Shown in pieces: positions 10,342 through 33,583 of a stretch of DNA of 64,000 bases. Origin of the DNA: Candidatus Heimdallarchaeum aukensis (GTDB taxonomy: Archaea > Asgardarchaeota > Heimdallarchaeia > Heimdallarchaeales > Heimdallarchaeaceae). The stretch is taken from assembly GCA_021513695.1 (NCBI GenBank), contig CP084166.1, positions 928,001 through 992,000 on the forward strand. Reading direction: 5' to 3'. Within the stretch, counting starts at the first letter, position 1. Each line of letters starts with the position of its first letter. The notes under the pieces were generated by a model. It did no database searches, was not told the origin of the DNA, and saw nothing but the letters and a program-made list of their open reading frames with translations. A program made the translations under genes and the position numbers.

Positions 10342-13300
10342 ATTTTCACACTACTTAGTTCAGCTTAAACCTCGTACTTGCTTGCAGAAGCACCTAGCAC
10401 GTAGTAATTTTCACACTACTTAGTTCAGCTTAAACCTTTCGATAATGATGGTGTTAGTGGTGAAGTGCAAAATTTTCACACTACTTAGTTCAGCTTAAAC
10501 AATCTATCAAGTGTCTCATTTTTTACGTTTCCTAGATTTTCACACTACTTAGTTCAGCTTAAACAATAACGTTTGAACATTGTTCTCGAATTCTTCATAA
10601 ATTTTCACACTACTTAGTTCAGCTTAAACAGTTGATGAAGGTGTGACAAAGTGTGACACTTCGATATTTTCACACTACTTAGTTCAGCTTAAACATTCTA
10701 CTTTTTTCTCAATCAATTTACAAGTTAGAGCGTCATTTTCACACTACTTAGTTCAGCTTAAACAGAACTAGGATCAGTCTCGGTCCATTCAGAAACTCGA
10801 TTTTCACACTACTTAGTTCAGCTTAAACTCCTAAAATAATAACTGATCCTAAGAATCCTGATAAGATTTTCACACTACTTAGTTCAGCTTAAACCCAGAG
10901 TGAGAACGGGGTTATAGGTCAATAATAAAGAAATTTTCACACTACTTAGTTCAGCTTAAACTTTGTTTTGATTTTTCTTTCTTTCAGGATAGCATCAATT
11001 TTCACACTACTTAGTTCAGCTTAAACAAATGGCTAAAAGAACCACAAGAACTTCAAGAAAATAATTTTCACACTACTTAGTTCAGCTTAAACTTTACATT
11101 TATATAACTTCCCCAGAAGATTATATATAATTTTCACACTACTTAGTTCAGCTTAAACCAGCAATGTTGGCACATCTCCCCACTCTACTTTCTCATTTTC
11201 ACACTACTTAGTTCAGCTTAAACATTACTCTTTTTTCTTTACAAAACATTTATATATTATATTTTCACACTACTTAGTTCAGCTTAAACGTTATATTAAG
11301 TGTTAAATAGTTCTCTTTTCCTTCTTATTTTCACACTACTTAGTTCAGCTTAAACGTAAAAAAATGAGTAATTCAGAAGAACATTTTCACACTACTTAGT
11401 TCAGCTTAAACTGAAAACCTTATAGGCTGGCGTGAATACGCAAACCTAATTTTCACACTACTTAGTTCAGCTTAAACACGTTTCCAAGTAAATCTGTTAC
11501 TATTTCAAATTTATTTTCACACTACTTAGTTCAGCTTAAACTGATTTACGTTACCCTCATGTTTGTTATGTTTATTTATTTTCACACTACTTAGTTCAGC
11601 TTAAACGAATTTACTTTACACAATGATCGTGCTGATACTGTTTTATTTTCACACTACTTAGTTCAGCTTAAACACATTGCTTGATATTGGAATTTTATAT
11701 CTTAATATATTTTCACACTACTTAGTTCAGCTTAAACCTGACTTTTTTGGAGAATTTGGTTTCGCTGATAGTAATTTTCACACTACTTAGTTCAGCTTAA
11801 ACTAGAAAATTGTATTCTTCAAACTATACGTATAGATATTCCATTTTCACACTACTTAGTTCAGCTTAAACCTTAAATTATCTTCAAACCAATCAGAATA
11901 ATAAAGTTCATATTTTCACACTACTTAGTTCAGCTTAAACATAAATATCGCTATTTCTCCTTTCTTAACTGTTCTTAATTTTCACACTACTTAGTTCAGC
12001 TTAAACCATAATCTATCATAAAAAAGTCTCCTATATCATAAGTATTTTCACACTACTTAGTTCAGCTTAAACACTATTTTTCCACCTTCTCTTTCTTCCC
12101 ATTCTCTCTTATTTTCACACTACTTAGTTCAGCTTAAACTTTGTACTTCACTGTGCTTAATATCTCTACTTATACTATTTTCACACTACTTAGTTCAGCT
12201 TAAACTTTATCACCCCTCATATATTTATTATACTTCCTAAAATTTTCACACTACTTAGTTCAGCTTAAACCGTACACCCATTCCTTAGGTGTCCAGTCTA
12301 ATACTTATTTTCACACTACTTAGTTCAGCTTAAACTCACCTATATATATGATGTTCTAACACATAAAAATCATTTTCACACTACTTAGTTCAGCTTAAAC
12401 CTGACTTTTTTGGAGAATTTGGTTTCGCTGATAGTAATTTTCACACTACTTAGTTCAGCTTAAACTAGAAAATTGTATTCTTCAAACTATACGTATAGAT
12501 ATTCCATTTTCACACTACTTAGTTCAGCTTAAACCTTAAATTATCTTCAAACCAATCAGAATAATAAAGTTCATATTTTCACACTACTTAGTTCAGCTTA
12601 AACATAAATATCGCTATTTCTCCTTTCTTAACTGTTCTTAATTTTCACACTACTTAGTTCAGCTTAAACCATAATCTATCATAAAAAAGTCTCCTATATC
12701 ATAAGTATTTTCACACTACTTAGTTCAGCTTAAACACTATTTTTCCACCTTCTCTTTCTTCCCATTCTCTCTTATTTTCACACTACTTAGTTCAGCTTAA
12801 ACTTTGTACTTCACTGTGCTTAATATCTCTACTTATACTATTTTCACACTACTTAGTTCAGCTTAAACTTTATCACCCCTCATATATTTATTATACTTCC
12901 TAAAATTTTCACACTACTTAGTTCAGCTTAAACCGTACACCCATTCCTTAGGTGTCCAGTCTAATACTTATTTTCACACTACTTAGTTCAGCTTAAACTC
13001 ACCTATATATATGATGTTCTAACACATAAAAATCATTTTCACACTACTTAGTTCAGCTTAAACCTCATAACAAATGGATAAAGACTATTGAAATCAAGAA
13101 TTTTCACACTACTTAGTTCAGCTTAAACCAATTATTATCGCAACAGCCATCTCAAGATCACCTTATTTTCACACTACTTAGTTCAGCTTAAACGTTTTTG
13201 AATAACAGTCTGTGAAGAGAGAGAAGCAAATTTTCACACTACTTAGTTCAGCTTAAACGTCTTATTTCGTTAAAATCTTCAACAATAGCTTGTTGATTTT

Positions 13301-16300
13301 CACACTACTTAGTTCAGCTTAAACACTTTAGACGTGAAAAATTGGTTAATGGTTTTAGGTGATTTTCACACTACTTAGTTCAGCTTAAACGTAAAGAGAA
13401 AAGAAGAAAGAAAAAGAACGATAAAAGAATTTTCACACTACTTAGTTCAGCTTAAACGAGATATTGCAACATTTTGCTACAAAAATATCTAAAAAATTTT
13501 CACACTACTTAGTTCAGCTTAAACTTTGAAGTATCTGTGATGTCTTTTGTGACTACTCCTGATTTTCACACTACTTAGTTCAGCTTAAACCTTACAGAGG
13601 GAGAATATGCGGGACAATATATTATTACATTTTCACACTACTTAGTTCAGCTTAAACATAGAAGAAGAGCTCATTACAACTTTCCTTTTCCGTGATTTTC
13701 ACACTACTTAGTTCAGCTTAAACAAGCGTCAGTAGCACCTACAAGCGGGACATTCACAAGATTTTCACACTACTTAGTTCAGCTTAAACTCTATTTTATA
13801 TACTTTCTCTAATTCTAAACTTCTACTATTTTCACACTACTTAGTTCAGCTTAAACAGTAGAAATGAAGGGGGGGTTAGGAGCTAGAAAAAATTTTCACA
13901 CTACTTAGTTCAGCTTAAACCAATTCTGTTAATTTGTTTATTTCTTCCCATCTTTCATTTTCACACTACTTAGTTCAGCTTAAACGATAAATGGTACAAT
14001 CGTTTGAACCCTTTTAGAAGAAATTTTCACACTACTTAGTTCAGCTTAAACAAGGTTATCGCCTTTACATTTAGGGTTCTCACAAGTAATTTTCACACTA
14101 CTTAGTTCAGCTTAAACTATTTATGTAAAAGTCCTCTTCATCTATTATTAAACTATTTTCACACTACTTAGTTCAGCTTAAACACTATAACTTTAAGCAC
14201 TTGTTTTACTATATCGAAAAATTTTCACACTACTTAGTTCAGCTTAAACAGTCCGTTCTCGTTTCTTATTTCTTCGTCATCGGTTCTAATTTTCACACTA
14301 CTTAGTTCAGCTTAAACATGATTTTGTATAGTTTCCTCTCTTTATAAATGAAAATTTTCACACTACTTAGTTCAGCTTAAACTCAGCGTTTTGTAGTTCT
14401 ATTTTTCGTAAGTCGTCATATTTTCACACTACTTAGTTCAGCTTAAACCATTTCTCCACCTCTTTTTCATTTCTACTTGTTCTAATTTTCACACTACTTA
14501 GTTCAGCTTAAACTTGCTCTCTAAATATATTGCATACATTCCTTTTCTGATTTTCACACTACTTAGTTCAGCTTAAACTGAACAAACACTCACAATCTTA
14601 TCTAATCTTTCAAACGTATTTTCACACTACTTAGTTCAGCTTAAACAAACTGAAGTCATGTCAAAGTTAGAAGCCCAACTATATTTTCACACTACTTAGT
14701 TCAGCTTAAACGAGCTTTTACTGAAGCAGAACTAAAAAGAAATACCCCAAATTTTCACACTACTTAGTTCAGCTTAAACCATTGAATTCCTCTTTCTTCC
14801 TCTGCACAATAGTGAATTTTCACACTACTTAGTTCAGCTTAAACACGGTGCTCTGAAATGATGGAGTTTGAACAAAAATATTTTCACACTACTTAGTTCA
14901 GCTTAAACGTACAATTATGTTAAATATAGAAGAATAAAAAGGAATTTTCACACTACTTAGTTCAGCTTAAACGATAAAAATGGTAGAAGAGCATAAGAAG
15001 AATGAGCTTAATTTTCACACTACTTAGTTCAGCTTAAACTCTATCCTCCTTTTTTTTGGTTTGCAGTTTATACAAGAATTTTCACACTACTTAGTTCAGC
15101 TTAAACTTCATAGAACTTGATGTTAGGGTTAGGAAAAACCTCATTTTCACACTACTTAGTTCAGCTTAAACTGTAGCTTTGAAAGTTTATCATAGTTATG
15201 TGAGAATTATTTTCACACTACTTAGTTCAGCTTAAACAGATGAAATTTCCGAATTAGTTACTTTATTTCCGTCTGATTTTCACACTACTTAGTTCAGCTT
15301 AAACATTGGAGCTCTTCCCTTGACAATACAAATATTACAAATTTTCACACTACTTAGTTCAGCTTAAACGAACGATTACAGTATAGAACAGACGAATATT
15401 ATTATATTTTCACACTACTTAGTTCAGCTTAAACATCAGCAACTCTTTGCTGGTTCTCAAGAGCTTTTTGATTTTCACACTACTTAGTTCAGCTTAAACG
15501 TGAAAAGTCTCTTGTGTAGGTATATCGTGCTGCGTATTTTCACACTACTTAGTTCAGCTTAAACAGGTTCTCACTTTGGACAAAAGAAGCAAGTTTAGAC
15601 GAATTTTCACACTACTTAGTTCAGCTTAAACTTTCTCCTGAAAGAAGATCGTATGGTAACGAATACGTATTTTCACACTACTTAGTTCAGCTTAAACTCT
15701 ACCACAATGAAGATCATGAGAAGAAACCCACACATTTTCACACTACTTAGTTCAGCTTAAACATTTTTTTCACCCATAATCATTTCCACCCCTCTTTGAT
15801 TTTCACACTACTTAGTTCAGCTTAAACTCAAGGTCAAAATGGGGAAAAAGGTCGAACTATGGTATTTTCACACTACTTAGTTCAGCTTAAACAACGCTTG
15901 TTTTGGGGTTTCACACCCCAAAATCTTATTTTCACACTACTTAGTTCAGCTTAAACTCTGCTTTATCTTCTTCTTTTTCACAATCTCTATGAATTTTCAC
16001 ACTACTTAGTTCAGCTTAAACTTTGCACCTATTATATTTTAAGAGTAAAGAATATAATTTTCACACTACTTAGTTCAGCTTAAACCAGAGAAAGACGCGG
16101 GTTCAATTTCGTATAAGTAAGTAATTTTCACACTACTTAGTTCAGCTTAAACTATCTTCTTTATCTCTTTTTCTACTAACTCATTCTTATTTTCACACTA
16201 CTTAGTTCAGCTTAAACTAGATAAAGGAAGTTTAGATAAAGCGATACAAGAATTGCTAAATTTTCACACTACTTAGTTCAGCTTAAACAAGCGAGTTCAG

Positions 16301-16420
16301 TATCTTCTTTTTCCTCATAGACCTTAATTTTCACACTACTTAGTTCAGCTTAAACATTTATTCCTGCTATACGCAATAGACTTGAAAACGTATTTTCACA
16401 CTACTTAGTTCAGCTTAAAC
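10342..16420 (-). CRISPR. CRISPR array 1: 93 repeats and 92 spacers, of which 82 are unique. The repeat is ATTTTCACACTACTTAGTTCAGCTTAAAC on the + strand, the reverse complement of the array-2 repeat. Spacers are 27-43 nt, mostly 35-38. It is transcribed on the minus strand from the leader at 16421-16535.
   Basis: Perfectly conserved 29-nt direct repeats with a ~65-bp period, counted by reading through the array. Orientation was inferred from the conserved leader and from identity to the array-2 repeat. Confidence 0.97.
11738..13063. repeat. Tandem segmental duplication inside array 1. A block of 10 spacer+repeat units (11738-12400) is repeated, apparently identically, at 12401-13063 (663 bp per copy).
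   Basis: Spacers ctgacttttttggagaatttggtttcgctgatagta .. tcacctatatatatgatgttctaacacataaaaatc occur twice in the same order. Confidence 0.9.
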
Positions 16421-16535
16421 GAAGTTTATTTTCTTTTCTAGCTATATTTTTCTCTCGTTTTGTCACTCACCTTCCTGGTCGACCTCCAATAAGGTATTAA
16501 CTTTATAAATATTGACCAGATACATAAACGTTTAC
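16421..16535 (-). promoter_or_regulatory. CRISPR leader of array 1 (minus-strand orientation). It is ~95% identical to the array-2 leader and contains a TATA-like TTTATAAAG and a GGAGGTCGACCAGGAAGGTGAGTGACAAAA block.
   Basis: The reverse complement of 16421-16535 aligns almost base-for-base with 28858-28971, including the junction ..AAAATAAACTTC|GTTTAAG. Confidence 0.8.
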
Positions 16536-20022: not shown

Positions 20023-20745
20023 TTGTTGATGAGGATTCTTATTTCTTTTAAGCCTAAATTTGATGTTTCAGAGGATGCCATAGTAAAACATGATATTCAA
20101 GGATTTATTTATAATCTAATCAAGTACAAAGATACTAAAGTTCTTTTAGATCATGATAAACATCATTTCAAATTTTTTTGTTTTAGCGATATTTTTCCTC
20201 AAGGTGATTTTAAAAAAGGAGAGACAAAAAATCTGTTAATTAGTTCTCCTACAAAAGAGCTAATAAATTTAATTGATGATAATCTTCCTCTTGAGAAATC
20301 CTATAGATTAGCTGGATTAACCATCGAAGTTATATCCAAAAAAACTTTTAACTTTCCCACAAAAAACAACTTTATTTCTGGAAGTCCTATAGTTTTATAC
20401 AAAGATAATACAAAGAATGAATATTTTAGCTTTAAGAAACACAAAAGTCTTAATTTCTTTCTCAATAGATTACAAGAAAATGCTGTGAAAAAGTATCAAA
20501 TTTACTATAACGATCCTGAATTTCAATTGTCTGGAAAGATTTTTGATACAATTGAATTTAGAAAGGAGGTTGCAGTTCACAACAGGAAACAAGGAAATGA
20601 ATTTATTCACATTGGCACTCTTTGGAAAAAATTAGAAAAAGAATACATAAAGAAAGAAGAAAGAAGGTTTTATCATTTTATCATGGAAAGTGGTCTTGGC
20701 GAAAAAAATAGTATGGGTTTTGGTTTTTTAAATCCTATTCAATAA
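20023..20745 (+). CDS. cas6: Cas6 endoribonuclease (type I-B).
   Basis: It is ~240 aa with the C-terminal glycine-rich loop GLGEKNSMGFGF, and it is the first gene of the cas operon. The likely start is the ATG at 20026. Confidence 0.85.
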   Translation: MLMRILISFKPKFDVSEDAIVKHDIQGFIYNLIKYKDTKVLLDHDKHHFKFFCFSDIFPQGDFKKGETKNLLISSPTKELINLIDDNLPLEKSYRLAGLTIEVISKKTFNFPTKNNFISGSPIVLYKDNTKNEYFSFKKHKSLNFFLNRLQENAVKKYQIYYNDPEFQLSGKIFDTIEFRKEVAVHNRKQGNEFIHIGTLWKKLEKEYIKKEERRFYHFIMESGLGEKNSMGFGFLNPIQ

Positions 20746-20850
20746 ATTGTATTTTTTTGTTTAAATTTTACAATTAATTTTTGAAAAAACAACCTTTAAA
20801 ATATTTTTTTCTTTCTGTTTTACCAATAAAACTTAATTATTGGTGTTCCA

Positions 20851-22863
20851 TTGATACAAGCAGTTAAACAATTAGGAAAAAAAATACGAGAGATTTATCC
20901 TGAAAAATATGCAGATTTTGTCGATGTCTTTATTGCAGATGTAAAAACAGATTTATTTTTGATAGAATTAGAGAAAAAAGAAAACGATTTTCAATATAAT
21001 AAAATTGTTTGGATGGAACCAAAACCTGAGATAATTCCTAAATTACTTTATAAAGACTTTGGGAGAAATATCAAAATTAGACCTGCGCCTGTAGCTAAAG
21101 TAGGTTATTTCCAGACCAAATCAAAAGATGGTAAAATTTCAGAAAAAGAGCTCGAGAATCACAAGAAGAAAATAAAAAGCGAACTAGACGCTTCCATAAT
21201 TAAATGGTTTTCTCAAGAAATTGATAGAAGAAAAGAAGGTAGTGAAAAAAGAATTTTCTTGGAAAATATAAAAAAAGGAATACTCAATTCATTAGATAAT
21301 ATAATTACAGATATTAAAGAACAGATGGATTTTTCAGGTCAAAATAAGAAAAAAAATGAAAAGTGTATAATAACACTACAATTTTTGGAAGGTGGTAAAG
21401 AATATTACCTTCGTGACTTTGATATTTTTTCTAAAGCTTTTTTAGATAAAAACTTGGAACGTTACGCAAATAAATGGGGAATAACTTCTAAAGGAGAAGA
21501 TGCTGTTTGTTCATTATGTCATGAGAAAAAAGAAGAAGTCTTTGGTTGTGCCTCAGACATTTTTAGCTGGTACACTCTTGATAAAAGAGGATTTGCACCA
21601 TTCTTTGATCAGACTTTAGGATGGAAACTATTTCCTGTCTGTAAAGAATGTATTATTGATCTAGAGATAGGCAAAAAATTTGTTTTAAACAATCTACGTC
21701 TTAAGTTTAATGATTTTACTAACTTTTTCTTAATTCCAAAGCTTCTAAATCCTAAAATTATCGATAAGGGTATTTTGAGAAGATTTGAGCTTTTCAAGAG
21801 TATTTCAGTTGAAAATAATGAACTATTGGAAAAATATAGGAAAAAAGAAGAGATACTTAAGAGAGCTACAAAAAGCACAATTGAAATGATCGGAGAACAA
21901 GAAAAAGATAACAATTTTACGCAGAATATGATTTTCCTGAATTTAATTTTCTTTGATGATGATGGAAAATCTATAAAGATTCTACGTAGTATTGAAGATG
22001 TTCTTCCTTCCAGGTTTGTTCAGATAACTGATGAGCTATATAAAATAAATAAGGATGAAACTTTGGACAGCTATAAAATTTATTTGCAATTAGTTTTAAA
22101 CATCTTATATCTGGAAAAAGAAAGTAAACGCGGTTCTACAATTGATAAAAAGTATTTATCTACAATCGATTCTCTTCTTAAAGATGTACCTTTAGATTAT
22201 GATGTTCTTATAAAGGATATCGCTTCAAGTTGTCAAGAGATAGTAAAGGAAAGTTATCTTTCTGATAACAATCTAAAAAAAATAGCTAAAAAAATTACAA
22301 ATATTGACAAAGGTAATAATGACGTAGAATTTGGCAACTCTTATGAGTTAATAATTAATGCTTATTTAAAATATTTAGTTTTATTAAAAAGATTAAATCT
22401 AATCCAAAAATGGAGGGTATCAAAAATGATTGATAAAACAGGACTTGAAGAAGAAATATCAGATAATAAGAGTCGACTAAGCATCTTAAATTCAATATTT
22501 AATGCTTATTCTGACTTTTTTGATCAACCCATTATTCGTGCTGTCTTTGTATTAGGCATTTTGACTAAGCTATTGATGAATATTCAGTATCGCAATCTCA
22601 ATGCTACGCCTTTTTTCAACAGGTTAAATGGGTTAAAATTGAATAAAAGAATAATAATCAAACTTGTTTCCGAAGTAAAAGGAAAACTAAGTGAATACTC
22701 TATAGCTTATGTTGATTTAGAAGAAGAGATGGCTAAATACTTCTTAGAAGCTGGTCACAATTGGCTGGTTTCTGATGACGAACTTAGTTTCTTCTTCGCT
22801 TTGGGAATGAATAACGCGAGTAAATTTAAATCAGAAACAAAAGAAGGTGAAGAAAATGAGTGA
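20851..22863 (+). CDS. cas8b: Cas8b (Csh1) large subunit of type I-B Cascade.
   Basis: 670 aa, located between cas6 and cas7. It carries a Cys-rich zinc-finger-like segment (CSLCHEKKEE..CKEC). Confidence 0.8.
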   Translation: MIQAVKQLGKKIREIYPEKYADFVDVFIADVKTDLFLIELEKKENDFQYNKIVWMEPKPEIIPKLLYKDFGRNIKIRPAPVAKVGYFQTKSKDGKISEKELENHKKKIKSELDASIIKWFSQEIDRRKEGSEKRIFLENIKKGILNSLDNIITDIKEQMDFSGQNKKKNEKCIITLQFLEGGKEYYLRDFDIFSKAFLDKNLERYANKWGITSKGEDAVCSLCHEKKEEVFGCASDIFSWYTLDKRGFAPFFDQTLGWKLFPVCKECIIDLEIGKKFVLNNLRLKFNDFTNFFLIPKLLNPKIIDKGILRRFELFKSISVENNELLEKYRKKEEILKRATKSTIEMIGEQEKDNNFTQNMIFLNLIFFDDDGKSIKILRSIEDVLPSRFVQITDELYKINKDETLDSYKIYLQLVLNILYLEKESKRGSTIDKKYLSTIDSLLKDVPLDYDVLIKDIASSCQEIVKESYLSDNNLKKIAKKITNIDKGNNDVEFGNSYELIINAYLKYLVLLKRLNLIQKWRVSKMIDKTGLEEEISDNKSRLSILNSIFNAYSDFFDQPIIRAVFVLGILTKLLMNIQYRNLNATPFFNRLNGLKLNKRIIIKLVSEVKGKLSEYSIAYVDLEEEMAKYFLEAGHNWLVSDDELSFFFALGMNNASKFKSETKEGEENE

Positions 22864-23785
22864 AATAATAAAAAATAGGTCTGAAATAGTTTTTTTGTAT
22901 GATGTTAGAGACGGTAATCCAAATGGTGACCCTGCTGATGGGAACAAGCCTAGGATTGATGAAACCAGTGGTATCAACATAGTAACTGATGTTCGACTAA
23001 AGAGAACAATAAGAGACTATATAAACAAGGTTAAAGGCCATGAAATTTTTGTTAAAAAGATAGAAGACTTAGAAGGGATAATCCAAACTTCTAAACAACG
23101 AGCACAAGATTTTCAGAATGATCCAGATAAGATTCTTTCTGAATGCGTGGATGTCAGGATGTTTGGGGGAACTATACCAATAAAAATTTCTGATAAGAAA
23201 GATGGTAGCATTACTTTTACTGGTCCCGTTCAATTCTCTATGGGGAGATCTCTTCACAGAGTCGAGTTAAAACATGTTAAAGGAACAGGAGCTTTTGCTT
23301 CTTCAGAAGGAAAGAAACAACAGACTTTTCGAGAAGAGTGGATACTACCTTATTCACTAATAAGCTTTTATGGTGTAATAAATGAGAATGGTGCAGAAGA
23401 TACACAGTTAACCGAAGAGGATGTTAAGCTTCTTGTAGAAAGTATCTGGAATGGGACTAATGATTTGTTAACAAGAAGTAAGATGGTTCATAGATCTAGA
23501 GTTCTTTTACAAATTATTTACCAAGAGAAAAACTTCCATGTCGGAGAGCTTGACAAAAAGATTAAGATGAAGGCTAAAGTTGAAGATGAAAAAATTAGAG
23601 GTACGGATGACTACACTCTTGAATTTGATAATTTTGTAGAAGCGATCAAAAATAACAAAGAAAAAGTAAAAATTATTCGTTACAAAGTAGATGACAGTAT
23701 TAATCTTGAATTTAATGGTGACAAAAAGACTATAGAAGAGATTCTAAAACTTACAGAATGTGAATTGGAAGAGCTGAAATTTTAA
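22847..23785 (+). CDS. cas7: Cas7 (Csh2) backbone subunit.
   Basis: The N-terminal signature LYDVRDGNPNGDPADGNKPR is typical of I-B/I-C Cas7. The true start is probably the ATG at 22859, preceded by GGTGA. Confidence 0.9.
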   Translation: MKKMSEIIKNRSEIVFLYDVRDGNPNGDPADGNKPRIDETSGINIVTDVRLKRTIRDYINKVKGHEIFVKKIEDLEGIIQTSKQRAQDFQNDPDKILSECVDVRMFGGTIPIKISDKKDGSITFTGPVQFSMGRSLHRVELKHVKGTGAFASSEGKKQQTFREEWILPYSLISFYGVINENGAEDTQLTEEDVKLLVESIWNGTNDLLTRSKMVHRSRVLLQIIYQEKNFHVGELDKKIKMKAKVEDEKIRGTDDYTLEFDNFVEAIKNNKEKVKIIRYKVDDSINLEFNGDKKTIEEILKLTECELEELKF

Positions 23786-23791
23786 TAATAG

Positions 23792-24553
23792 GTGAGACTA
23801 ATGCTAAAACAGGAAGCTGAAGTAAGAGAAGTTTTAGTTTTCGATATTTGGGGTGATTTTGCTCATTTTAAGAAAAACTATGCTACAACTTCAGCTCTTA
23901 CATACAATTTTCCTCCTCGAAATACTATTGCAGGAATAATTGGAGCAATTTTAGGTTTAAAGAGGGCAGATTTTCCTGAAAAATTGTCTCCTGAAAAGAG
24001 TTACATTGGTGTTTCAATACTCTCTCCAATAATGAAAAAAACTATTACAATGAATCTTATTCACACTAAACCTTCTGAATCACTTATATTCAAAAATAAT
24101 TTTGGTTATTTCAAAAAGCACACACAGATTCCTTTTCAATTTTTATCTAATATCTCATTTAGGGTGTATTTTTCAACTGACGATGAGGAAATGTTTTCAC
24201 AACTATATACATATCTTAAAAACCATAAGTCTCATTATACAGTTTCGTTAGGTTTGAGCAATCTACTTTGTAACTTTAAGTTAATAGGAAAAAAAACAAT
24301 AAGAAAAAAAGAAGTAGCTAACAAAGAAGTAGAGGTTTTAACAGTAATTCCGATGAACAAAGTCAAAGAAGTAAATGTGTTTAAAAATCCTAAAATGAAT
24401 ATCGAGAATTTACCCAGATTTATCGATAGTTCAAGAACAGTTCATGAATACCAGGAAGTTCTATCAAGCATGGATCCAGAAAAACCTCTTTTTGTAGTCC
24501 CTAGAGATACCTTATGGGAGATTGAAAATGACAAATTCATCAGTTTCCTCTGA
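23792..24553 (+). CDS. cas5: Cas5 (Cas5h/Cas5b).
   Basis: ~250 aa. The N-terminal LVFDIWGDFAHFKK..PPRNTIAGIIGAILG is typical of Cas5. It sits between cas7 and cas3. Confidence 0.85.
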   Translation: MRLMLKQEAEVREVLVFDIWGDFAHFKKNYATTSALTYNFPPRNTIAGIIGAILGLKRADFPEKLSPEKSYIGVSILSPIMKKTITMNLIHTKPSESLIFKNNFGYFKKHTQIPFQFLSNISFRVYFSTDDEEMFSQLYTYLKNHKSHYTVSLGLSNLLCNFKLIGKKTIRKKEVANKEVEVLTVIPMNKVKEVNVFKNPKMNIENLPRFIDSSRTVHEYQEVLSSMDPEKPLFVVPRDTLWEIENDKFISFL

Positions 24554-26990
24554 AAATCAGATAAACATTTTTTCTCACCCTAATAAAAATATTTTAGAAC
24601 ATTTAAGTGAGACAGAAAGAGAAATTCTAAATATCCTTGAAAAACTACAGCCCAATTTTTCAATCAAAAAAAACATTATTATCGAAATCGCTAGAATTTT
24701 AGCTTTAACACATGATATTGGAAAATGCACAATCTTTTTTCAAGAATATCTTCATTCAAACGAAGAAAATAACTTCAAAAAATTGGGAGAATATCAAAGT
24801 TCAAAACTTCACCACCATGGACTAATCTCTGCAGTTTTTACCTATTATACACTAAAGAAACTTTTAAATTCAAATAATGAGCAGTTCTATGACCTGAATA
24901 GTGGATATAAAGACCTATTACCTCATATAGGCTTTTTAACAACAAAAAAACATCATGGTAATTTAGGAAATTTTTATGATGAGATTATTATAAACAGAAC
25001 AAGTGAAGAAAAGATTAGACAGCAACTAGAAAATTTCCATCCCCAATTCGAAAATGTTGTCGAATTCATAAGAAATAAAATTAATATAACAATTTCATTT
25101 AATGAATTTTCAGAATCCTTTGGAGATTTAATTGATGAATTAGCTTTCAGTGATGAACTATTATTGAACTATTATGAAAATAGTAGAGATTGTGAACTTT
25201 ATCTATTTACTTTATTTTTACATTCAATCTTAACAGATGCAGATAAAACTTCTGCTATTGGTGTCTCTAAGCCTATTCTTCCATTTATTTCTTCTAACAA
25301 AATTATCAAAAACAGGAAAAAAATAATCCAGAAAAAAGGAAAAAAGACATATTTAGATAACTTAAGAGAGAATATTTACAAAGAAGTAATTGCAAAGATA
25401 GAAAAAACACCTTTAGATAACAAAATATTTACATTAACAGCTCCTACAGGTTCAGGAAAAACTCTCACAGTTTTTGAAGCAGCATTTAGATTGAAAGATA
25501 AAATTTTAAGGAGAACTAATATAGAAATGAAAATTATTTATTGCCTTCCATTTCTCAGCATCATTGATCAAAATGCTCACATTATTAACCAACTGCTAGA
25601 TCCTGACTCAGTTAAGTTTCTTCCTTCAACTCAACTACTAATTCATCATTACTTGGCAGAAGTTCAATACAGCTCTTATGAAGAAGATTATACCTTTGAT
25701 GAAAGTAGATTCCTAATTGAGGATTGGCATTCTTCAGTTATTATTACAACCTTTATTCAGCTTTTTCATAGTATTTTTACCAATAGAAATAGCAAGATAA
25801 GGAAACATCACAATATACAAAATTCTATCATAATACTTGATGAAGTTCAAAACATTCCTCATAAGTATTGGTTATTGATCAGGGAAGTTTTTCAAAGATT
25901 ATCAGAGATCGAGAATGTTTATATCATTTTTACAACAGCCACACAGCCTAAAATTTTTAGTTCAGAAGAGAAAGTTGTTGAATTACTTGAAAATAAGGAA
26001 AAATACTTTGAACAGTTAAGTAGAATTACTTTAGAACCAAAAATTGATAACAATATCACACTCAACGAGTTTATTTTAGAAATTAATGAGAAACTGCAAA
26101 AGAACAGTGACAAGGATATTCTAATTGTTGCGAATACAATCCGAGAAGCTCAAGAGATTTTTGACAGTATTAATTTTAAAAAAGATCATGATAAGTTATT
26201 TTTCCTTTCAAGTCAAATAATCCCTAGAAAGAGGAAAGAAAGAATTGAAGAAATAAAGAGAAAATTAGAAAAAGAAAAAGATAAAAGAGAGAGTAATGAA
26301 AAACGAATTATTTTAGTAACTACCCAATTAATTGAAGCAGGAGTAGATATCGATTTTGATATTGTAATAAGAGATTTAGGACCAATAGATTCTATAAATC
26401 AAGTAGCAGGAAGATGTAACAGAAACGGAGAAGAAGAAAAGGGAAAAACAATTGTTTATTCAGTCATTGACCAAAAAACAAAAAGATTATTTGCTTCATA
26501 CATTTATGACGGATTTATTTTAAGTAAAACGAAGGATGTTCTAAAAAACAAAAGAGTGATAGAAGAACAAGAATTCCTCAAAATCATTGACGATTATTAT
26601 TTAAGCATCGAAAAGACAGGGGACACAATAACCTCCACTAATATACTAGACTCTATCTTTAATTTAGAGTTTGATGAAATAGGTAAATTTAGCCTGATAG
26701 AAGAAAGAGCTGATCAAGTTCCTGTTTTTATTGAGATAGATAAAAAGGCAAAGGAAATTTGGGCAGAATATTTGGAAATATGGAATATTAAAGATTGGAA
26801 GAAAAGAAATGAGAAATTTATAAAAATCAAAAATGATCTCTATAGTAACTTAATTAACGTAGACAAGAAAAAAATCAAAACAATTGAGCAAATAAAGGGT
26901 TATTATTATATCGATTTTCAAAATGCTAGGAACTACTACGACAATGAAAAAGGTTTCATTGGGAAAGAAAAAGATGTTATTTTATTATAA
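24522..26990 (+). CDS. cas3: Cas3 with an N-terminal HD nuclease domain and a DExH helicase.
   Basis: HD motif LTHDIGK. Helicase motifs TAPTGSGKT, ILDEVQ, TATQP and VTTQLIEAGVDIDFD. 822 aa. Confidence 0.9.
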   Translation: MKMTNSSVSSENQINIFSHPNKNILEHLSETEREILNILEKLQPNFSIKKNIIIEIARILALTHDIGKCTIFFQEYLHSNEENNFKKLGEYQSSKLHHHGLISAVFTYYTLKKLLNSNNEQFYDLNSGYKDLLPHIGFLTTKKHHGNLGNFYDEIIINRTSEEKIRQQLENFHPQFENVVEFIRNKINITISFNEFSESFGDLIDELAFSDELLLNYYENSRDCELYLFTLFLHSILTDADKTSAIGVSKPILPFISSNKIIKNRKKIIQKKGKKTYLDNLRENIYKEVIAKIEKTPLDNKIFTLTAPTGSGKTLTVFEAAFRLKDKILRRTNIEMKIIYCLPFLSIIDQNAHIINQLLDPDSVKFLPSTQLLIHHYLAEVQYSSYEEDYTFDESRFLIEDWHSSVIITTFIQLFHSIFTNRNSKIRKHHNIQNSIIILDEVQNIPHKYWLLIREVFQRLSEIENVYIIFTTATQPKIFSSEEKVVELLENKEKYFEQLSRITLEPKIDNNITLNEFILEINEKLQKNSDKDILIVANTIREAQEIFDSINFKKDHDKLFFLSSQIIPRKRKERIEEIKRKLEKEKDKRESNEKRIILVTTQLIEAGVDIDFDIVIRDLGPIDSINQVAGRCNRNGEEEKGKTIVYSVIDQKTKRLFASYIYDGFILSKTKDVLKNKRVIEEQEFLKIIDDYYLSIEKTGDTITSTNILDSIFNLEFDEIGKFSLIEERADQVPVFIEIDKKAKEIWAEYLEIWNIKDWKKRNEKFIKIKNDLYSNLINVDKKKIKTIEQIKGYYYIDFQNARNYYDNEKGFIGKEKDVILL

Positions 26991-27002
26991 CGAAATGATG
27001 GA

Positions 27003-27031
27003 GTTCAAGCTAAACTAAGTAGTATGAAAAT
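27003..27031 (+). repeat. Solitary degenerate CRISPR repeat (26/29 identical: GTTCAAGCTAAACTAAGTAGTATGAAAAT) in the cas3-cas4 intergenic spacer. It is in the same orientation as the cas genes and array 2.
   Basis: Direct comparison with the array repeat GTTTAAGCTGAACTAAGTAGTGTGAAAAT shows 3 mismatches. No second repeat lies nearby. Confidence 0.8.
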
Positions 27032-27073
27032 TAGAGGTAGAAGTAATGGTATTAAATTCTTGGTGAAATTGTA

Positions 27074-27604
27074 ATGGTGGAGTTAAATCATATTAGCATT
27101 AAGAATACTGATTTTGCAGTAACTGGAGTAATGGTTCAATATTTATTTTCATGTAAAAGAGAATTGTGGTTTTTTACCAAAAAAATTGATTTCAACAAAG
27201 AGGATCAGAACATTCAAATTGGCAAAATAATACATGAAACAAGCTATAAACGAAATAAAAAAGAGTTTGACTTAGGTTTTGTAAAATTTGACTTAATTGA
27301 AACAAAAAACAGGATAATAATTTCTGAAATAAAAAAATCTTCAAAACTTTTGGAACCTGCAAAAATGCAACTTTTGTATTATGTTTACATTTTAAGTAAA
27401 ATAACTGAAAAAGAAGTAGAAGGAGAAATTAGAATTCCAAAAGAGAGAAAAAAAGTAAAGATTCAATTGCAAAACGAAGAAGAAAAATTAATTCAAAAAG
27501 CTTTGAGAGAGATTAAAGAAATTTCCTTACTGGAAAGACCTCCCAAAGCAGAAAAAAAATTTTATTGTAAGAATTGCGCTTATTACATTTTTTGCTGGGT
27601 TTGA
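27074..27604 (+). CDS. cas4: Cas4 (RecB-like nuclease with a C-terminal Cys cluster).
   Basis: 176 aa. An N-terminal Cys (FSCKREL), a C-terminal CKNCAYYIFC, and a RecB-like core (IGKIIHE). Confidence 0.85.
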   Translation: MVELNHISIKNTDFAVTGVMVQYLFSCKRELWFFTKKIDFNKEDQNIQIGKIIHETSYKRNKKEFDLGFVKFDLIETKNRIIISEIKKSSKLLEPAKMQLLYYVYILSKITEKEVEGEIRIPKERKKVKIQLQNEEEKLIQKALREIKEISLLERPPKAEKKFYCKNCAYYIFCWV

Positions 27605-28591
27605 GTGAAAAAAATGAAAGATTCTATTTACATTACAAAGGAAGGAGTAATTTACAGAAAAGATAATACTATTGTTTTTCAAAATCAAGAACAAAAGCAT
27701 ACTTTACCTATCGAAGCAGTGAAAGATATATATTGTATTGGCAAAGTAACTATAAGATCTGGAGCAGCTTATCAACTAATGGAAAAAAGGATTCCTGTAC
27801 ATTTTTTCGGAAAATATGGACACTATAGAGGAACATTACAACCAAAACAAGATCTAATCTCTGGAGAAGTAATAGTAAAACAAGTTCAACATTATACTGA
27901 TTACATAAAAAGAATAAAAATTGCAAAAGAGATGTTTAAAGGAATAAAACACAACATTCTCTGGGTTCTAAAATATTACAAATCAAAAAGAGATATAGAA
28001 GATGTAGTTGAAAAAATTGAACATGTTAATATTCAAGAAGAAATATTAAAAATAAATACATTAAGAAGTTTAGAAGGTCAAATATGGGAACTTTTCTATC
28101 AAGCTGCTGATACAATTTGTCCTTCATGGGGTTTTAGAAAAAGGACTAGAAGGCCTCCTTTAGATGAAGGAAATGCACTAATATCTTATGGAAACTCAGT
28201 TCTATATGGAAAAACAATTTCTGAAATATTCAAAACTTATCTTCATCCTGCAATTTCGTTTATACACGAACCAAGTGAAAGAAGGTACTCTTTAGCCTTA
28301 GATCTAGCTGATATTTTCAAACCAGTAATAGTTTTTAGAACAGTCTTCAGGCTTATAAATCAGAAAATAATTTCAAAGAAAGATTTTGAAAAAGAAGTAG
28401 GAGTCCAAATTTCAGAAAAAGGAAAAAAAGTATTTATCACAGAATTAGAAAAAACATTCACAACTACAGTAAGACATCCAAATCTGAAAAGAAATACCTC
28501 ATACCAGTTTTTGATAAGACTTGAAGGACTAAAAATAATGAAACATGTTCTAGGAGATAAAAAATATGAAAGCTTTAAAGCATGGTGGTAG
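27605..28591 (+). CDS. cas1: Cas1 integrase.
   Basis: 328 aa, sharing the N-terminal Cas1 fold signature (IYITKEGVIYRKDNTIVF). It is adjacent to and overlaps cas2. The likely start is the ATG at 27614. Confidence 0.9.
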   Translation: MKKMKDSIYITKEGVIYRKDNTIVFQNQEQKHTLPIEAVKDIYCIGKVTIRSGAAYQLMEKRIPVHFFGKYGHYRGTLQPKQDLISGEVIVKQVQHYTDYIKRIKIAKEMFKGIKHNILWVLKYYKSKRDIEDVVEKIEHVNIQEEILKINTLRSLEGQIWELFYQAADTICPSWGFRKRTRRPPLDEGNALISYGNSVLYGKTISEIFKTYLHPAISFIHEPSERRYSLALDLADIFKPVIVFRTVFRLINQKIISKKDFEKEVGVQISEKGKKVFITELEKTFTTTVRHPNLKRNTSYQFLIRLEGLKIMKHVLGDKKYESFKAWW

Positions 28592-28857
28592 AGATATACG
28601 TGATAATCGTTTATGACGTGGGAGAAGAAAGAGTAAATAGAATACATAAATTCTTGAAAGCATATTTAACATGGACACAAAATTCAGTATTTGAAGGAAA
28701 AATAACAAAAGCAACATTAGCTCAAATAAAAACAGGAATAAAAAGCATAATAAAAAAAGAAGTCGATTCAATAAAAATATTCAAAATAAAAGGAGAACAA
28801 TGGATGAATATTGAAATAATGGGAGTAGAAAAAAATAAGTTTCAGAATATAATTTAG
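28582..28857 (+). CDS. cas2: Cas2.
   Basis: 91 aa with the N-terminal VIIVYDV motif. It lies immediately upstream of the leader of array 2. Confidence 0.9.
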   Translation: MVVEIYVIIVYDVGEERVNRIHKFLKAYLTWTQNSVFEGKITKATLAQIKTGIKSIIKKEVDSIKIFKIKGEQWMNIEIMGVEKNKFQNII

Positions 28858-28971
28858 GTAAATCGTAAGAATCAGGTCGACATTTATAAAGATGATACAT
28901 TATTGGAGGTCGACCAGGAAGGTGAGTGACAAAAGGAAAGAAAAATATAACTAGAAAAGAAAATAAACTTC
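28858..28971 (+). promoter_or_regulatory. CRISPR leader of array 2 (TATA-like TTTATAAAG at ~28883). It is nearly identical to the array-1 leader.
   Basis: See the array-1 leader. It sits directly between the cas2 stop and the first repeat. Confidence 0.8.
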
Positions 28972-31900
28972 GTTTAAGCTGAACTAAGTAGTGTGAAAAT
29001 TTCTTTTGTTCTTTGGAGGAGGACAACCTTCAACGAGTTTAAGCTGAACTAAGTAGTGTGAAAATCAGTCTGGGTATATTTTATGCCCCTCAATATTTTG
29101 AGTTTAAGCTGAACTAAGTAGTGTGAAAATTGCTGGCTGGACTGGGCATAATTTCCAGAAATCTCTGTTTAAGCTGAACTAAGTAGTGTGAAAATAGTAA
29201 AATAGCTTTTATTTATTCCGTAGTAATATATGGTTTAAGCTGAACTAAGTAGTGTGAAAATCGCTATTGTAGTCGAGTTAGAAGATGGAGAGATTGAGTT
29301 TAAGCTGAACTAAGTAGTGTGAAAATAAATATATTGTGATGAATTGGATAAAAGAACTAAAAGTTTAAGCTGAACTAAGTAGTGTGAAAATAAACCAGAA
29401 GGAATGACTTTCATTCCTGCTACAGGTTTAAGCTGAACTAAGTAGTGTGAAAATTAATCAGAATAAAATGCTCATAATCATTGGTATAATAGTTTAAGCT
29501 GAACTAAGTAGTGTGAAAATGCAAAGCAATGAAAGGAGTGTTTTGTCTGGTGAGGTCGTTTAAGCTGAACTAAGTAGTGTGAAAATCAATCAGATTTGAG
29601 GGACAAAATAGTCCCGTTGGGACGTTTAAGCTGAACTAAGTAGTGTGAAAATACTGAAGAACAAGAAAAGAATATAAAAAGAACCAAGGTTTAAGCTGAA
29701 CTAAGTAGTGTGAAAATTAATATATCTATCGACTTGAACAAATTAGTTGAAGAGGGTTTAAGCTGAACTAAGTAGTGTGAAAATGGTAAATCCCCCAACA
29801 ATCCTGAAAGTGTTAAATTTGTTTAAGCTGAACTAAGTAGTGTGAAAATATTGTTCTTTTTTCAAATCATCTATTTTTTTTGCTCGTTTAAGCTGAACTA
29901 AGTAGTGTGAAAATTACAATTGACAGTAGTCACACACAAACCATTTAGGTGTTTAAGCTGAACTAAGTAGTGTGAAAATAAAATTCTTCGTGTGTCATAT
30001 AAAAGGCATCATCAGTTTAAGCTGAACTAAGTAGTGTGAAAATAGATCAGAGAGACTTGGGTAGAGTTAGTGAGATCTATGTTTAAGCTGAACTAAGTAG
30101 TGTGAAAATTACATATTTTTGAATAATTGAGACATGCATATGACGTTTAAGCTGAACTAAGTAGTGTGAAAATACAGCTCTCAACTGATAAGAGCGTTCT
30201 TTTTCATTGTTTAAGCTGAACTAAGTAGTGTGAAAATTTGTCAAAGTGTTTGTATAAGTGTCAATATAATCTGTTTAAGCTGAACTAAGTAGTGTGAAAA
30301 TATGTCTTTAGAGACTTGTTGAAGAGCAGGATTGTCAGGTTTAAGCTGAACTAAGTAGTGTGAAAATCAAGCATTTCTGCGATAACGACACCAGAACCAT
30401 TAAGTTTAAGCTGAACTAAGTAGTGTGAAAATTAAATGTGGTCGTGTATCGTTATATGGTGCTCTGAAATGTTTAAGCTGAACTAAGTAGTGTGAAAATA
30501 TATCTCCAGAGTGCCAAATTTCAACATTTGACACGTTTAAGCTGAACTAAGTAGTGTGAAAATCCAATTAATTAAGCCGCTGTTTCAAAAGGTGGTTCAG
30601 TTTAAGCTGAACTAAGTAGTGTGAAAATTTCGATGGATCCATAAAGGTAAATTAGGATCCCAAAAGTTTAAGCTGAACTAAGTAGTGTGAAAATAAAAAG
30701 CCAAGAGATGGATTGATGAACAAAAAAACCGTTTAAGCTGAACTAAGTAGTGTGAAAATCAGTCTGGATAGAGTTTGTGCCCATTAATATTCTGAATTGT
30801 TTAAGCTGAACTAAGTAGTGTGAAAATAGAGTAGGATTGTCAGATTGATCCATAAGGTATAGAAGTTTAAGCTGAACTAAGTAGTGTGAAAATGGTGACG
30901 CCACAAGCGAGGCATTCCCAAGCTCAATAGTTTAAGCTGAACTAAGTAGTGTGAAAATGGATTAAAAAATATGTCTCCTCTCGCTCGTTACGGGTTTAAG
31001 CTGAACTAAGTAGTGTGAAAATAATATCTTTAGATACCTGTTGAAGAGCGGAGTTGGTTTAAGCTGAACTAAGTAGTGTGAAAATCCAAAATTCTCGACT
31101 GCCTCTAAAGCAAATGAGAAAGTTTAAGCTGAACTAAGTAGTGTGAAAATTTTTTTTTCTGTCTGTTATTTCTTCTACTTCTTCTGTTTAAGCTGAACTA
31201 AGTAGTGTGAAAATTTATGATATGCGAACGTTTGCATGTTTGCGAATACAAGTTTAAGCTGAACTAAGTAGTGTGAAAATAGAAAACGTTTGGCTCGAAT
31301 GGATTGGTTTCTATGTCGTTTAAGCTGAACTAAGTAGTGTGAAAATTTGCTAAACCCGCCGCATAATCTTTTTTCTTTTATTTTGTTTAAGCTGAACTAA
31401 GTAGTGTGAAAATTAACCTGCAGAAATATCTTGTAAAATCTTGAATTCAACCTTGTTTAAGCTGAACTAAGTAGTGTGAAAATTAGTTTTGATTTGTAAA
31501 AGACGGATATCCACTTGTTGTGCTGTTTAAGCTGAACTAAGTAGTGTGAAAATATCAACACGTGGGTTTCTATCCAAATCTAATCCTCTGTTGTTTAAGC
31601 TGAACTAAGTAGTGTGAAAATAGCGATATAAAGAAGTTATCCTTTTCAGTATAATAAGGTTTAAGCTGAACTAAGTAGTGTGAAAATAAATTTCTAAAAA
31701 TATTGAAAGGTCAAAATCAAGATTGTTTAAGCTGAACTAAGTAGTGTGAAAATCTAACATGTGTAAGATTCATTGGGCCAATCCAAATTGTTTAAGCTGA
31801 ACTAAGTAGTGTGAAAATCTAAACACAATTTGCATGATGCCATGCTTGTTTTTTGTTTAAGCTGAACTAAGTAGTGTGAAAATGTTGGTTGTGTATAGTG

Positions 31901-33583
31901 TAAATAGATTTTTCTGATTGGGTTTAAGCTGAACTAAGTAGTGTGAAAATTTCTACTTCAAAGAATGAGCACCAATAGTTAAACCAGTTTAAGCTGAACT
32001 AAGTAGTGTGAAAATGCTTCATCTGCTAAAAGTTGTAGTTGTTCATAAAGGTTTAAGCTGAACTAAGTAGTGTGAAAATTGTGCTACATATATACACACC
32101 TATATCCTGTTTATCGTTTAAGCTGAACTAAGTAGTGTGAAAATATCCTGATAGGTGAGTCCTACAGGAGAAAGAAAAAGTTTAAGCTGAACTAAGTAGT
32201 GTGAAAATATCCTGATAGGTGAGTCCTACAGGAGAAAGAAAAAGTTTAAGCTGAACTAAGTAGTGTGAAAATCCCAATAGCATCCTCTTTTATCTGGGGC
32301 TTGGTTTATGTTTAAGCTGAACTAAGTAGTGTGAAAATCTGTGATTTCTGCGGAAATAAACATGTGACGGAAAGTTTAAGCTGAACTAAGTAGTGTGAAA
32401 ATGCAACTCTTTCCGTCCAGCGCACTAAAGCTGCTTTTGGGTTTAAGCTGAACTAAGTAGTGTGAAAATGTTTTTCATGGTAGCTTGCTACCAAAAATTT
32501 ACTTAAAAGTTTAAGCTGAACTAAGTAGTGTGAAAATGAGACTGTTAATAGCGAAGTCAGATTCCTCAAAAGGTGTTTAAGCTGAACTAAGTAGTGTGAA
32601 AATTTGTCTTTACACAGGGCATTCTCAGTTCTGGAGGAAGTTTAAGCTGAACTAAGTAGTGTGAAAATCACATAAACAAATTAGAAAGCGAAATAACCAC
32701 AGTTGTTTAAGCTGAACTAAGTAGTGTGAAAATCAATATTCTTCATCTTCTTCTAAATCATACAATAGCGTTTAAGCTGAACTAAGTAGTGTGAAAATAG
32801 AAAAGAGGAACCGTTGTTCTTAAAGGTAAAAATCGTTTAAGCTGAACTAAGTAGTGTGAAAATAAAGAGTATTGAACTCCTGGTTCAAAACTGATTTTGC
32901 AGTGTTTAAGCTGAACTAAGTAGTGTGAAAATTAATTGCTTTTTTGTCTGCATGACTTGGTAATTCAAAGTTTAAGCTGAACTAAGTAGTGTGAAAATTT
33001 CAAGGTGAGACCAACGATCCTGGTTACTTCGGTTGTTTAAGCTGAACTAAGTAGTGTGAAAATAATATGTAATTAAATAAGTTTTTATTGTGGTAAAATG
33101 TTTAAGCTGAACTAAGTAGTGTGAAAATACATTAAGAAAACGCTTACCATCTAAAGAAACAATCGTTTAAGCTGAACTAAGTAGTGTGAAAATTCATAAG
33201 TTGACCAATATTCAGAAATTACATAACGTTTAAGCTGAACTAAGTAGTGTGAAAATGAAAGCGTTTAGAATTGGTGGCGGTTCTGGTTGCAGGTTTAAGC
33301 TGAACTAAGTAGTGTGAAAATTACTGGGCAATGGAAAAAAGCTGTTGCCGCATTCAAGTTTAAGCTGAACTAAGTAGTGTGAAAATTAACTCACTCGCTC
33401 ACCCTCAGAGAGAGCCACAAACGTTTAAGCTGAACTAAGTAGTGTGAAAATTAATTTACGTCATGACTATGATGCGACCCCCAACGAGGTTTAAGCTGAA
33501 CTAAGTAGTGTGAAAATATTTGACTACTAGGTTTAGGTTTGAATATGAACCAGAGTTTAAGCTGAACTAAGTAGTGTGAAAAA
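28972..33583 (+). CRISPR. CRISPR array 2: 71 repeats and 70 spacers, of which 69 are unique. The repeat is GTTTAAGCTGAACTAAGTAGTGTGAAAAT. The terminal repeat is degenerate (..GAAAAA).
   Basis: 29-nt repeats with a ~65-bp period. The leader-distal last repeat has one mismatch. One spacer (atcctgataggtgagtcctacaggagaaagaaaaa) is present twice in tandem (32145-32179 and 32209-32243). Confidence 0.97.

What the first reader, a model, noticed from the sequence alone, without database searches (positions are those of the whole stretch)
11738..13063. Perfect 663-bp tandem duplication of ten spacer-repeat units inside array 1
Spacers 22-31 are repeated in identical order as spacers 32-41. A block duplication of this kind inside an array is not produced by normal polarised adaptation. 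It indicates recent unequal recombination between repeats, or an assembly artefact. The lack of divergence between copies argues that the event is very recent.
Basis: seen in the sequence. Interest (0 to 1): 0.5.

Follow-up and report, generated by a model that had tools for sequence, protein, structure and literature searches.

The report
Ten-spacer block duplicated inside a CRISPR array
A 663-base block of ten spacer-repeat units occurs twice, back to back and without a single difference, inside a type I-B CRISPR array of the Asgard archaeon Candidatus Heimdallarchaeum aukensis; this is a known kind of array rearrangement, it could not be checked against the reads, and it is of minor interest.

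Summary
Window 11738-12400 equals 12401-13063: 663 bp, ten spacer-repeat units, 0 mismatches. The junction is one intact 29-bp repeat.

The array has 93 perfect repeats (10342-16420) and is transcribed on the minus strand. It belongs to a complete type I-B cas operon flanked by two divergent arrays. The source is the circularised Ca. Heimdallarchaeum aukensis genome (Wu et al. 2022).

The most likely cause (about 0.68) is misaligned pairing of two identical repeats ten units apart, by replication slippage or unequal exchange.

An artefact cannot be excluded. The genome was built with metaSPAdes (k up to 99) from 150-bp reads, scaffolded with Nanopore reads of MDA-amplified DNA, then polished with Pilon. 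Against an artefact, a single-copy array has no repeated k-mers at k = 55 or above, and the junction needs 67 diagnostic 99-mers. K-mers cannot separate two copies from more.

No reads or sister-strain arrays could be reached. Multi-unit duplications are already documented, for example DVR14-20 and a 25-DVR block in M. tuberculosis. "Very recent" is only loosely bounded, at under 0.45% divergence. Interest is low.

The parts
10342..16420 (-). CRISPR array 1: 93 identical 29-bp repeats and 92 spacers (82 distinct). Transcribed on the minus strand.
11738..12400 (-). Copy A of the duplicated unit: spacers 22-31 with their repeats, 663 bp.
   Evidence: identical to 12401-13063.
12401..13063 (-). 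Copy B of the duplicated unit: spacers 32-41 with their repeats, 663 bp.
12372..12400 (-). Junction repeat joining spacer 31 to the second copy of spacer 22. It is the only new sequence that the duplication creates. The diagnostic stretch is 12336-12436.
   Evidence: 67 diagnostic 99-mers.
11709..11737 (-). Repeat bounding the block on the trailer side. It is one of the two repeats that must have mispaired.
   Evidence: the identity at offset 663 starts here.
13035..13063 (-). Repeat bounding the block on the leader side. It is the partner in the inferred mispairing.
16421..16520 (-). Leader of array 1, with a TATA-like ATTTATAAAG at 16501-16510. It is 91/100 identical to the leader of array 2.
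20023..28857 (+). Type I-B cas operon: cas6, cas8b, cas7, cas5, cas3, cas4, cas1, cas2.
28972..33583 (+). CRISPR array 2: 71 repeats with the same repeat sequence. The last repeat has one mismatch. The leader is at 28858-28971.
32116..32243 (+). Single-unit tandem duplication in array 2: the spacer at 32145-32179 equals the spacer at 32209-32243.

Best explanation
This is most likely a real tandem duplication of ten spacer-repeat units in a type I-B CRISPR array of Ca. Heimdallarchaeum aukensis. During replication or repair, the repeat on one side of the block paired with the identical 29-bp repeat ten units away on the sister or nascent strand. Template switching (slippage) or unequal exchange then gave one product carrying the block twice; the reciprocal product would be a ten-spacer deletion. 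The junction is a normal repeat, so the array stays in register. Cas6 should cut the transcript into normal crRNAs, and ten old spacers are simply encoded twice. The effect is probably neutral. The structure should be unstable, because the two copies form 692 bp of perfect direct repeat. Shown here: the anatomy, the in-phase junction, the array orientation, the cas context, and a second, one-unit duplication in the sister array. Inferred: the mechanism, its presence in most cells of the population, and neutrality.
For: The two copies are exact and head to tail, and their ends lie in identical repeats. The junction repeat is intact and the period is a whole ten units. A single-copy array has no repeated k-mers at k = 55-150, so a short-read assembler has no ambiguity to resolve wrongly. 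The two-copy form needs 67 99-mers that a single-copy genome does not contain. Array 2 of the same system carries an independent one-unit tandem duplication. The window holds no other perfect long tandem repeat that would point to sloppy joining. The literature describes duplication as the commonest non-canonical array event and attributes it to repeat misalignment (PMC11472070; PMC4524480). Multi-unit blocks are known in M. tuberculosis, namely DVR14-20 and a 25-DVR block (PMC7968741).
Against: There is no read-level or sister-strain confirmation. The genome is a metagenome assembly from 150-bp reads, scaffolded with Nanopore reads of MDA- and PCR-amplified DNA. A 663-bp loop is longer than a read, and k-mers cannot set its copy number. 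Ten units is long if duplications follow the geometric block-length distribution fitted to deletions (mean 2.7), which gives P(10 or more) of about 0.016. More than a third of complete M. tuberculosis genomes are reported to carry wrong CRISPR loci.
Confidence: 0.68

Rival explanations
1. The duplication is an assembly or scaffolding artefact, and the real genome has the block once. The second copy would have arisen when LRScaf placed or merged contigs using chimeric long reads from MDA-amplified DNA. Pilon would then have polished both copies to identity.
For: The pipeline was metaSPAdes with k up to 99 on 150-bp reads, two rounds of LRScaf with MDA- and PCR-amplified Nanopore reads, then Pilon. 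LRScaf merges contigs whenever the estimated gap is negative. CRISPR loci in finished genomes are often wrong. Perfect identity of the copies is what polishing would produce.
Against: A single-copy array is a simple unbranched path at k = 55-99, so there is no contig break to scaffold across. An unmerged overlap would land in phase with the roughly 66-bp array period only about 1 time in 65, yet the junction here is a flawless repeat. There are no Ns or indels at the junction. The window shows no other perfect tandem duplication outside the arrays.
Confidence: 0.2
2. The junction is real, but the assembled form is not the state of the main genome. Either only part of the enrichment population carries the duplication, or the true copy number is three or more. 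A third possibility is that the junction comes from an excised 663-bp circle formed by recombination between the two repeats.
For: Two-copy and three-copy arrays have identical k-mer sets at every k tested, so copy number rests on coverage or long reads. The sample is a population rather than a clone. Related strains with different leader-end spacers exist at the same site. Phi29-based MDA strongly favours small circles (my own knowledge).
Against: The enrichment genome closed into one circle at 346x depth. The Logan contigs from three runs that I fetched carry either DNA 100% identical to the window (L001) or a flanking protein identical to the window's. I saw no sign of mixed strains in those flanks. 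Nothing points directly to circles.
Confidence: 0.1
3. The same ten spacers were acquired a second time, by adaptation, in the same order.
For: None beyond the fact that identical spacers can occasionally be re-acquired. SpacerPlacer classifies about 1% of duplicate candidates that way.
Against: [quoted passage not shown] New spacers enter at the leader end.
Confidence: 0.005

Closest known systems
Multi-unit DVR (repeat plus spacer) duplications in the Mycobacterium tuberculosis complex CRISPR/DR locus (CRISPRbuilder-TB, PMC7968741)
   Same: Blocks of consecutive repeat-spacer units are duplicated inside an array: DVR14-20 inserted between spacers 20 and 21 (a tandem seven-unit block), and a 25-DVR block. 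The junctions lie in the repeats, and the events are heritable lineage markers.
   Different: Those cases are supported by reads from many isolates and by phylogeny. This one is a single metagenome-derived genome with no read check. The system type also differs (type III-A in M. tuberculosis, from my own knowledge), as does the domain of life.
Spacer duplications catalogued across CRISPRCasdb by SpacerPlacer (PMC11472070) and by Kupczok et al. 2015 (PMC4524480)
   Same: These are non-polarised events. About 3% of spacers are duplication candidates, 86% of which are classed as simple duplications, and they are attributed to repeat misalignment. Duplicates are expected to be lost faster than other spacers.
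   Different: By analogy with the deletion block lengths fitted there (geometric, mean 2.7), most events should span one or a few units. A ten-unit block would lie in the tail (about 1.6%).
Blockwise spacer deletion by repeat misalignment
   Same: It uses the same substrate (identical repeats) and the same mispairing. A deletion is the reciprocal or alternative product.
   Different: The outcome is a gain rather than a loss, and it creates a long perfect direct repeat that is itself unstable.
Tandem duplication artefacts in scaffolded short-read assemblies
   Same: They give two perfectly identical adjacent copies in a genome built from contigs joined by noisy long reads.
   Different: Here the junction is in exact register with the array. 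The single-copy sequence has no k-mer ambiguity that would break contigs.

Membership tests
CRISPR array of a type I-B system | Regularly spaced identical direct repeats separating unique spacers of similar length | tested here: met
   There are 93 identical 29-bp repeats. Spacers are 27-42 nt, mostly 35-38.
CRISPR array of a type I-B system | Adjacent cas1 and cas2 plus the type I-B effector genes (cas8b, cas7, cas5, cas3, cas6) | tested here: met
   NCBIfam gives Cas1b at 1.8e-122 and Cas7/Csh2 at 1.2e-83. Cas8b/Csh1, Cas5b, Cas3, Cas4, Cas2 and Cas6 are all above their cut-offs.
CRISPR array of a type I-B system | Leader next to the newest end, which defines orientation | tested here: met
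   The two leaders are 91/100 identical and share a TATA-like box 81 bp upstream of the first repeat. The terminal repeat of array 2 is mutated. A sister strain has different spacers at the leader end.
CRISPR array of a type I-B system | Spacers match mobile elements | tested here: inconclusive
   No matches were found in the window or in IMG/VR for two block spacers. GenBank phages gave none and plasmids gave one chance-level hit. The source paper also found almost no matches.
Repeat-mediated tandem duplication (slippage or unequal exchange) | Two head-to-tail copies whose ends lie in pre-existing direct repeats, with one intact repeat at the junction | tested here: met
Repeat-mediated tandem duplication (slippage or unequal exchange) | A single-copy ancestral arrangement in relatives | not testable with these tools
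   An exact block spacer and the exact repeat gave 0 hits in genome contigs and metagenome contigs. Contigs reached through flanking proteins stop at or before the array, or after four leader-end spacers in L002.
Repeat-mediated tandem duplication (slippage or unequal exchange) | Junction and twofold depth supported by raw reads | not testable with these tools
   There is no read access. Logan contigs (k = 31) break at the first repeat, and at k = 31 there are no diagnostic k-mers.
Assembly artefact | The true sequence is ambiguous at the assembler's k, so a wrong path is possible | tested here: not met
   The single-copy version of the array has 0 repeated k-mers at k = 55, 77, 99, 127 and 150.
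Assembly artefact | A pipeline step exists that can join sequence without read-level k-mer support | tested here: met
   LRScaf scaffolding with MDA- and PCR-amplified Nanopore reads merges contigs when the estimated gap is negative.

The most novel reading that the evidence does not exclude
The duplication is kept by selection because doubling the dose of these ten crRNAs helps against an active, still unknown Heimdallarchaeum mobile element. Alternatively, the junction reports excised circular spacer-block DNA, a physical intermediate of array rearrangement that could move spacer blocks between arrays or cells.
Probability: 0.04. Interest if true: 0.5.

Novelty: new member of a known kind. 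Interest (0 to 1): 0.15.

Why it matters
The practical value is small. This is one of the few closed Asgard archaeal genomes and is used as a reference, so a 663-bp stretch that is either a real rearrangement or a copy-number error should be flagged. It affects spacer counts: array 1 has 82 distinct spacers, not 92. If real, it adds an archaeal example at the long end of the size range of array duplications. It also shows the same repeat-misalignment process acting in both arrays of one Asgard system. It opens no new question.

Tried and rejected
**Exact DNA searches.** I searched for block spacer 31 and for the 29-bp repeat in genome contigs and metagenome contigs.

**Sister-strain arrays through flanking proteins.**
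- Three exact look-ups failed. For the two proteins nearest the array the cause was the ORF start I had chosen; later found the shorter forms. I did not establish why the 492-aa look-up failed.
- With corrected proteins I fetched Logan, JGI, ENA and NCBI contigs (L001-L012).
- None reaches into array 1 beyond four leader-end spacers. All 12 look-ups are spent.

**Protein-level retrieval of array contigs.** This is impossible, because the only ORF of 30 aa or more near the block is a 37-aa one that spans its trailer-side edge.

**Are the ten spacers special?**
- There are no self-targets in the window.
- Two block spacers have no IMG/VR hits.
- There are no phage hits and only a chance-level plasmid hit.
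- Purine content, GC content and run length are not unusual.
- So I found nothing to support selection on this block.

**Other checks.**
- Rfam found no family for the repeat.
- The source paper and its 25 supplementary files contain neither the spacers nor any mention of the duplication.
- Re-acquisition by adaptation is rejected on the anatomy.

Full report
**Observation**

Array 1 consists of 93 copies of a 29-bp repeat (ATTTTCACACTACTTAGTTCAGCTTAAAC on the + strand) from 10342 to 16420. None has a mismatch, and they separate 92 spacers. Spacers 22-31 recur as spacers 32-41 with identical sequence, length and order. Window 11738-12400 equals 12401-13063 over 663 bp. At offset 663 the identity extends for 694 bp: the unit, one flanking repeat, and two bases shared by chance.

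Among all other spacer pairs of both arrays only three stand out: one further exact duplicate in array 2 and two near-duplicates. Shuffled spacers give 0-1 pairs at that score. The finding is therefore real in the sequence, sits at the stated coordinates, and is far beyond chance.

**Context**

- A complete type I-B operon lies between the two arrays: cas6, cas8b, cas7, cas5, cas3, cas4, cas1 and cas2, at 20023-28857.
- Array 2 (28972-33583, 71 repeats) has the same repeat on the opposite strand. Its last repeat carries one mismatch.
- The 100 bp next to the first repeat of each array are 91% identical. Each includes a TATA-like ATTTATAAAG 81 bp upstream of the first repeat.
- A sister-strain contig (L002) differs at 34 of 3499 aligned bases. 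It has the same leader and repeat but four different spacers at that end.
- Array 1 is therefore read on the minus strand from a leader at 16421 onwards. The duplicated block is spacers 52-61 and 62-71 counted from the leader, in the older half of the array.

**Source**

Exact protein look-ups place the window in the 3,081,793-bp circular genome of Candidatus Heimdallarchaeum aukensis (proteins including UJG41597 to UJG41624). That genome was published by Wu et al. 2022 (PMC8813620).

It was assembled from one enrichment DNA sample in four steps:
1. metaSPAdes on Illumina 2x150-bp reads, with k = 21-99.
2. Two rounds of LRScaf scaffolding with Nanopore reads from MDA-amplified DNA, one run also PCR-amplified.
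3. Pilon polishing at 346x.
4. Sanger checks at the circularisation join and at one unresolved 1-kb stretch near 2.9 Mbp.

The paper does not mention the duplication, and its supplementary files do not list these spacers.

**Real or artefact?**

I built single-copy, two-copy and three-copy versions of the array and compared their k-mers.
- The single-copy array has no repeated k-mers at k = 55-150. It is a simple linear path, so a de Bruijn assembler has nothing to mis-resolve.
- The two-copy form needs 67 99-mers that a single-copy genome lacks. All of them span the spacer31-repeat-spacer22 junction.
- The three-copy form adds no further k-mers, so copy number cannot be set by k-mers.

It follows, as an inference from how such assemblers work, that the junction was either present in reads or made at the scaffolding step. 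LRScaf merges contigs when the estimated gap is negative. However, a mis-merged overlap would fall in register with the roughly 66-bp array period only about once in 65 tries. The junction here is a flawless repeat with no Ns or indels.

The window has no other perfect long tandem repeat outside the arrays. Array 2 has an independent one-unit duplication, which two 150-bp reads can almost bridge.

I put a real duplication in the main genotype at about 0.68. A pure artefact gets about 0.2. A real junction with the wrong copy number, or from a subpopulation or an excised circle, gets about 0.1. CRISPR loci are a known weak point: more than a third of complete M. tuberculosis genomes are reported to have erroneous ones.

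**Mechanism (inferred)**

The repeat on the trailer side of spacer 22 paired with the identical repeat on the leader side of spacer 31 on the sister or nascent strand. Slippage or unequal exchange then produced a product with the block twice. The homology at the crossover is the 29-bp repeat plus two bases.

The array stays in register, so processing should yield normal crRNAs with ten old spacers encoded twice. The two copies now form 692 bp of perfect direct repeat, which should favour collapse back to one copy. SpacerPlacer's authors make the same argument for why duplicates are seen less often than expected.

**Timing**

Zero differences in 663 bp gives a 95% upper bound of 0.45% divergence between the copies. 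That is about half the 0.97% separating this genome from the L002 strain. This is a loose bound. All 93 repeats are also identical, and gene conversion could erase differences. The order of the duplication relative to the 51 later acquisitions cannot be told from one genome.

**Is the block special?**

I found nothing to suggest so.
- No spacer matches elsewhere in the window.
- Two block spacers have no IMG/VR match.
- The whole array has no phage match and only one chance-level plasmid hit. This agrees with the source paper, which found only eight protospacers for 1,565 spacers.
- Base composition and strand bias of the block are ordinary.

**Comparison with what is known**

- Duplication is the commonest departure from polarised array growth. 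About 3% of spacers in CRISPRCasdb are duplication candidates, 86% of them simple duplications, and these are attributed to repeat misalignment (PMC11472070).
- Kupczok et al. reached the same view (PMC4524480).
- Multi-unit blocks are documented in M. tuberculosis: DVR14-20 inserted between spacers 20 and 21, and a 25-DVR block (PMC7968741).
- If duplications follow the block-length distribution fitted to deletions (geometric, mean 2.7), ten or more units would be about 1.6% of events. That is long but not unprecedented.

This is a new instance of a known kind of event, in an Asgard archaeon.

**What failed**

Exact DNA searches of the genome and metagenome collections found neither a block spacer nor the repeat. 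Twelve protein-anchored contig look-ups never reached into array 1 beyond four leader-end spacers. Logan contigs (k = 31) break at the first repeat. The decisive test, counting junction reads and depth in the unamplified Illumina library or running a simple PCR, lies outside these tools.

**Verdict**

The event is most likely a genuine repeat-mediated duplication, unverified at read level. It is ordinary in kind and of low interest (0.15).

Noticed in passing
window 32116-32243: Array 2 has its own tandem duplication of a single unit. The 35-nt spacer ATCCTGATAGGTGAGTCCTACAGGAGAAAGAAAAA occurs twice in a row, at 32145-32179 and 32209-32243.
   Followed up: partly
window 27003-27031; L012 3463-3491: A lone CRISPR repeat sits in the 83-bp gap between cas3 and cas4, in the same orientation as array 2 and with 3 mismatches. 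It is conserved with only 1 mismatch in a different Heimdallarchaeaceae MAG whose flanking cas genes are 87-91% identical, while the sequence after it differs. It could be a Cas6 processing site or a CRISPR-derived regulatory RNA. The 42 nt after it have no match of 12 nt or more elsewhere in the window.
   Followed up: partly
window 16570-18036 (-) and 18047-19525 (-): Two large proteins of unknown function (488 and 492 aa) lie between the array 1 leader and cas6. They show only weak winged-helix or Sta1-like hits. A search of 5.8 billion proteins with the first of them found a single relative, from a sister strain. They may be lineage-specific CRISPR-linked regulators.
   Followed up: partly
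window 29066-29101 vs 30760-30798; 30302-30338 vs 31023-31056 and 30828-30864: Array 2 holds near-duplicate and overlapping spacers: the same protospacer region sampled from diverged variants. This suggests repeated encounters with related elements, or primed adaptation.
   Followed up: partly
window 10342-16420 and 28972-33583: The two arrays are long inverted copies of the same repeat with 91%-identical leaders, and they flank the 12.5-kb segment that holds the cas operon and the two unknown genes. Recombination between them would invert that segment and swap spacer sets. I did not test for this.
   Followed up: no
window 11356-11382: Spacer 16 of array 1 is only 27 nt long, against 34-42 nt for all the others. 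It may be a truncated or aberrant integration.
   Followed up: no
window 40656-40942 and 41289-41575: A 287-bp direct repeat at 86% identity lies inside a 721-aa protein rich in bacterial Ig-like domains. It is probably an internal domain duplication.
   Followed up: no
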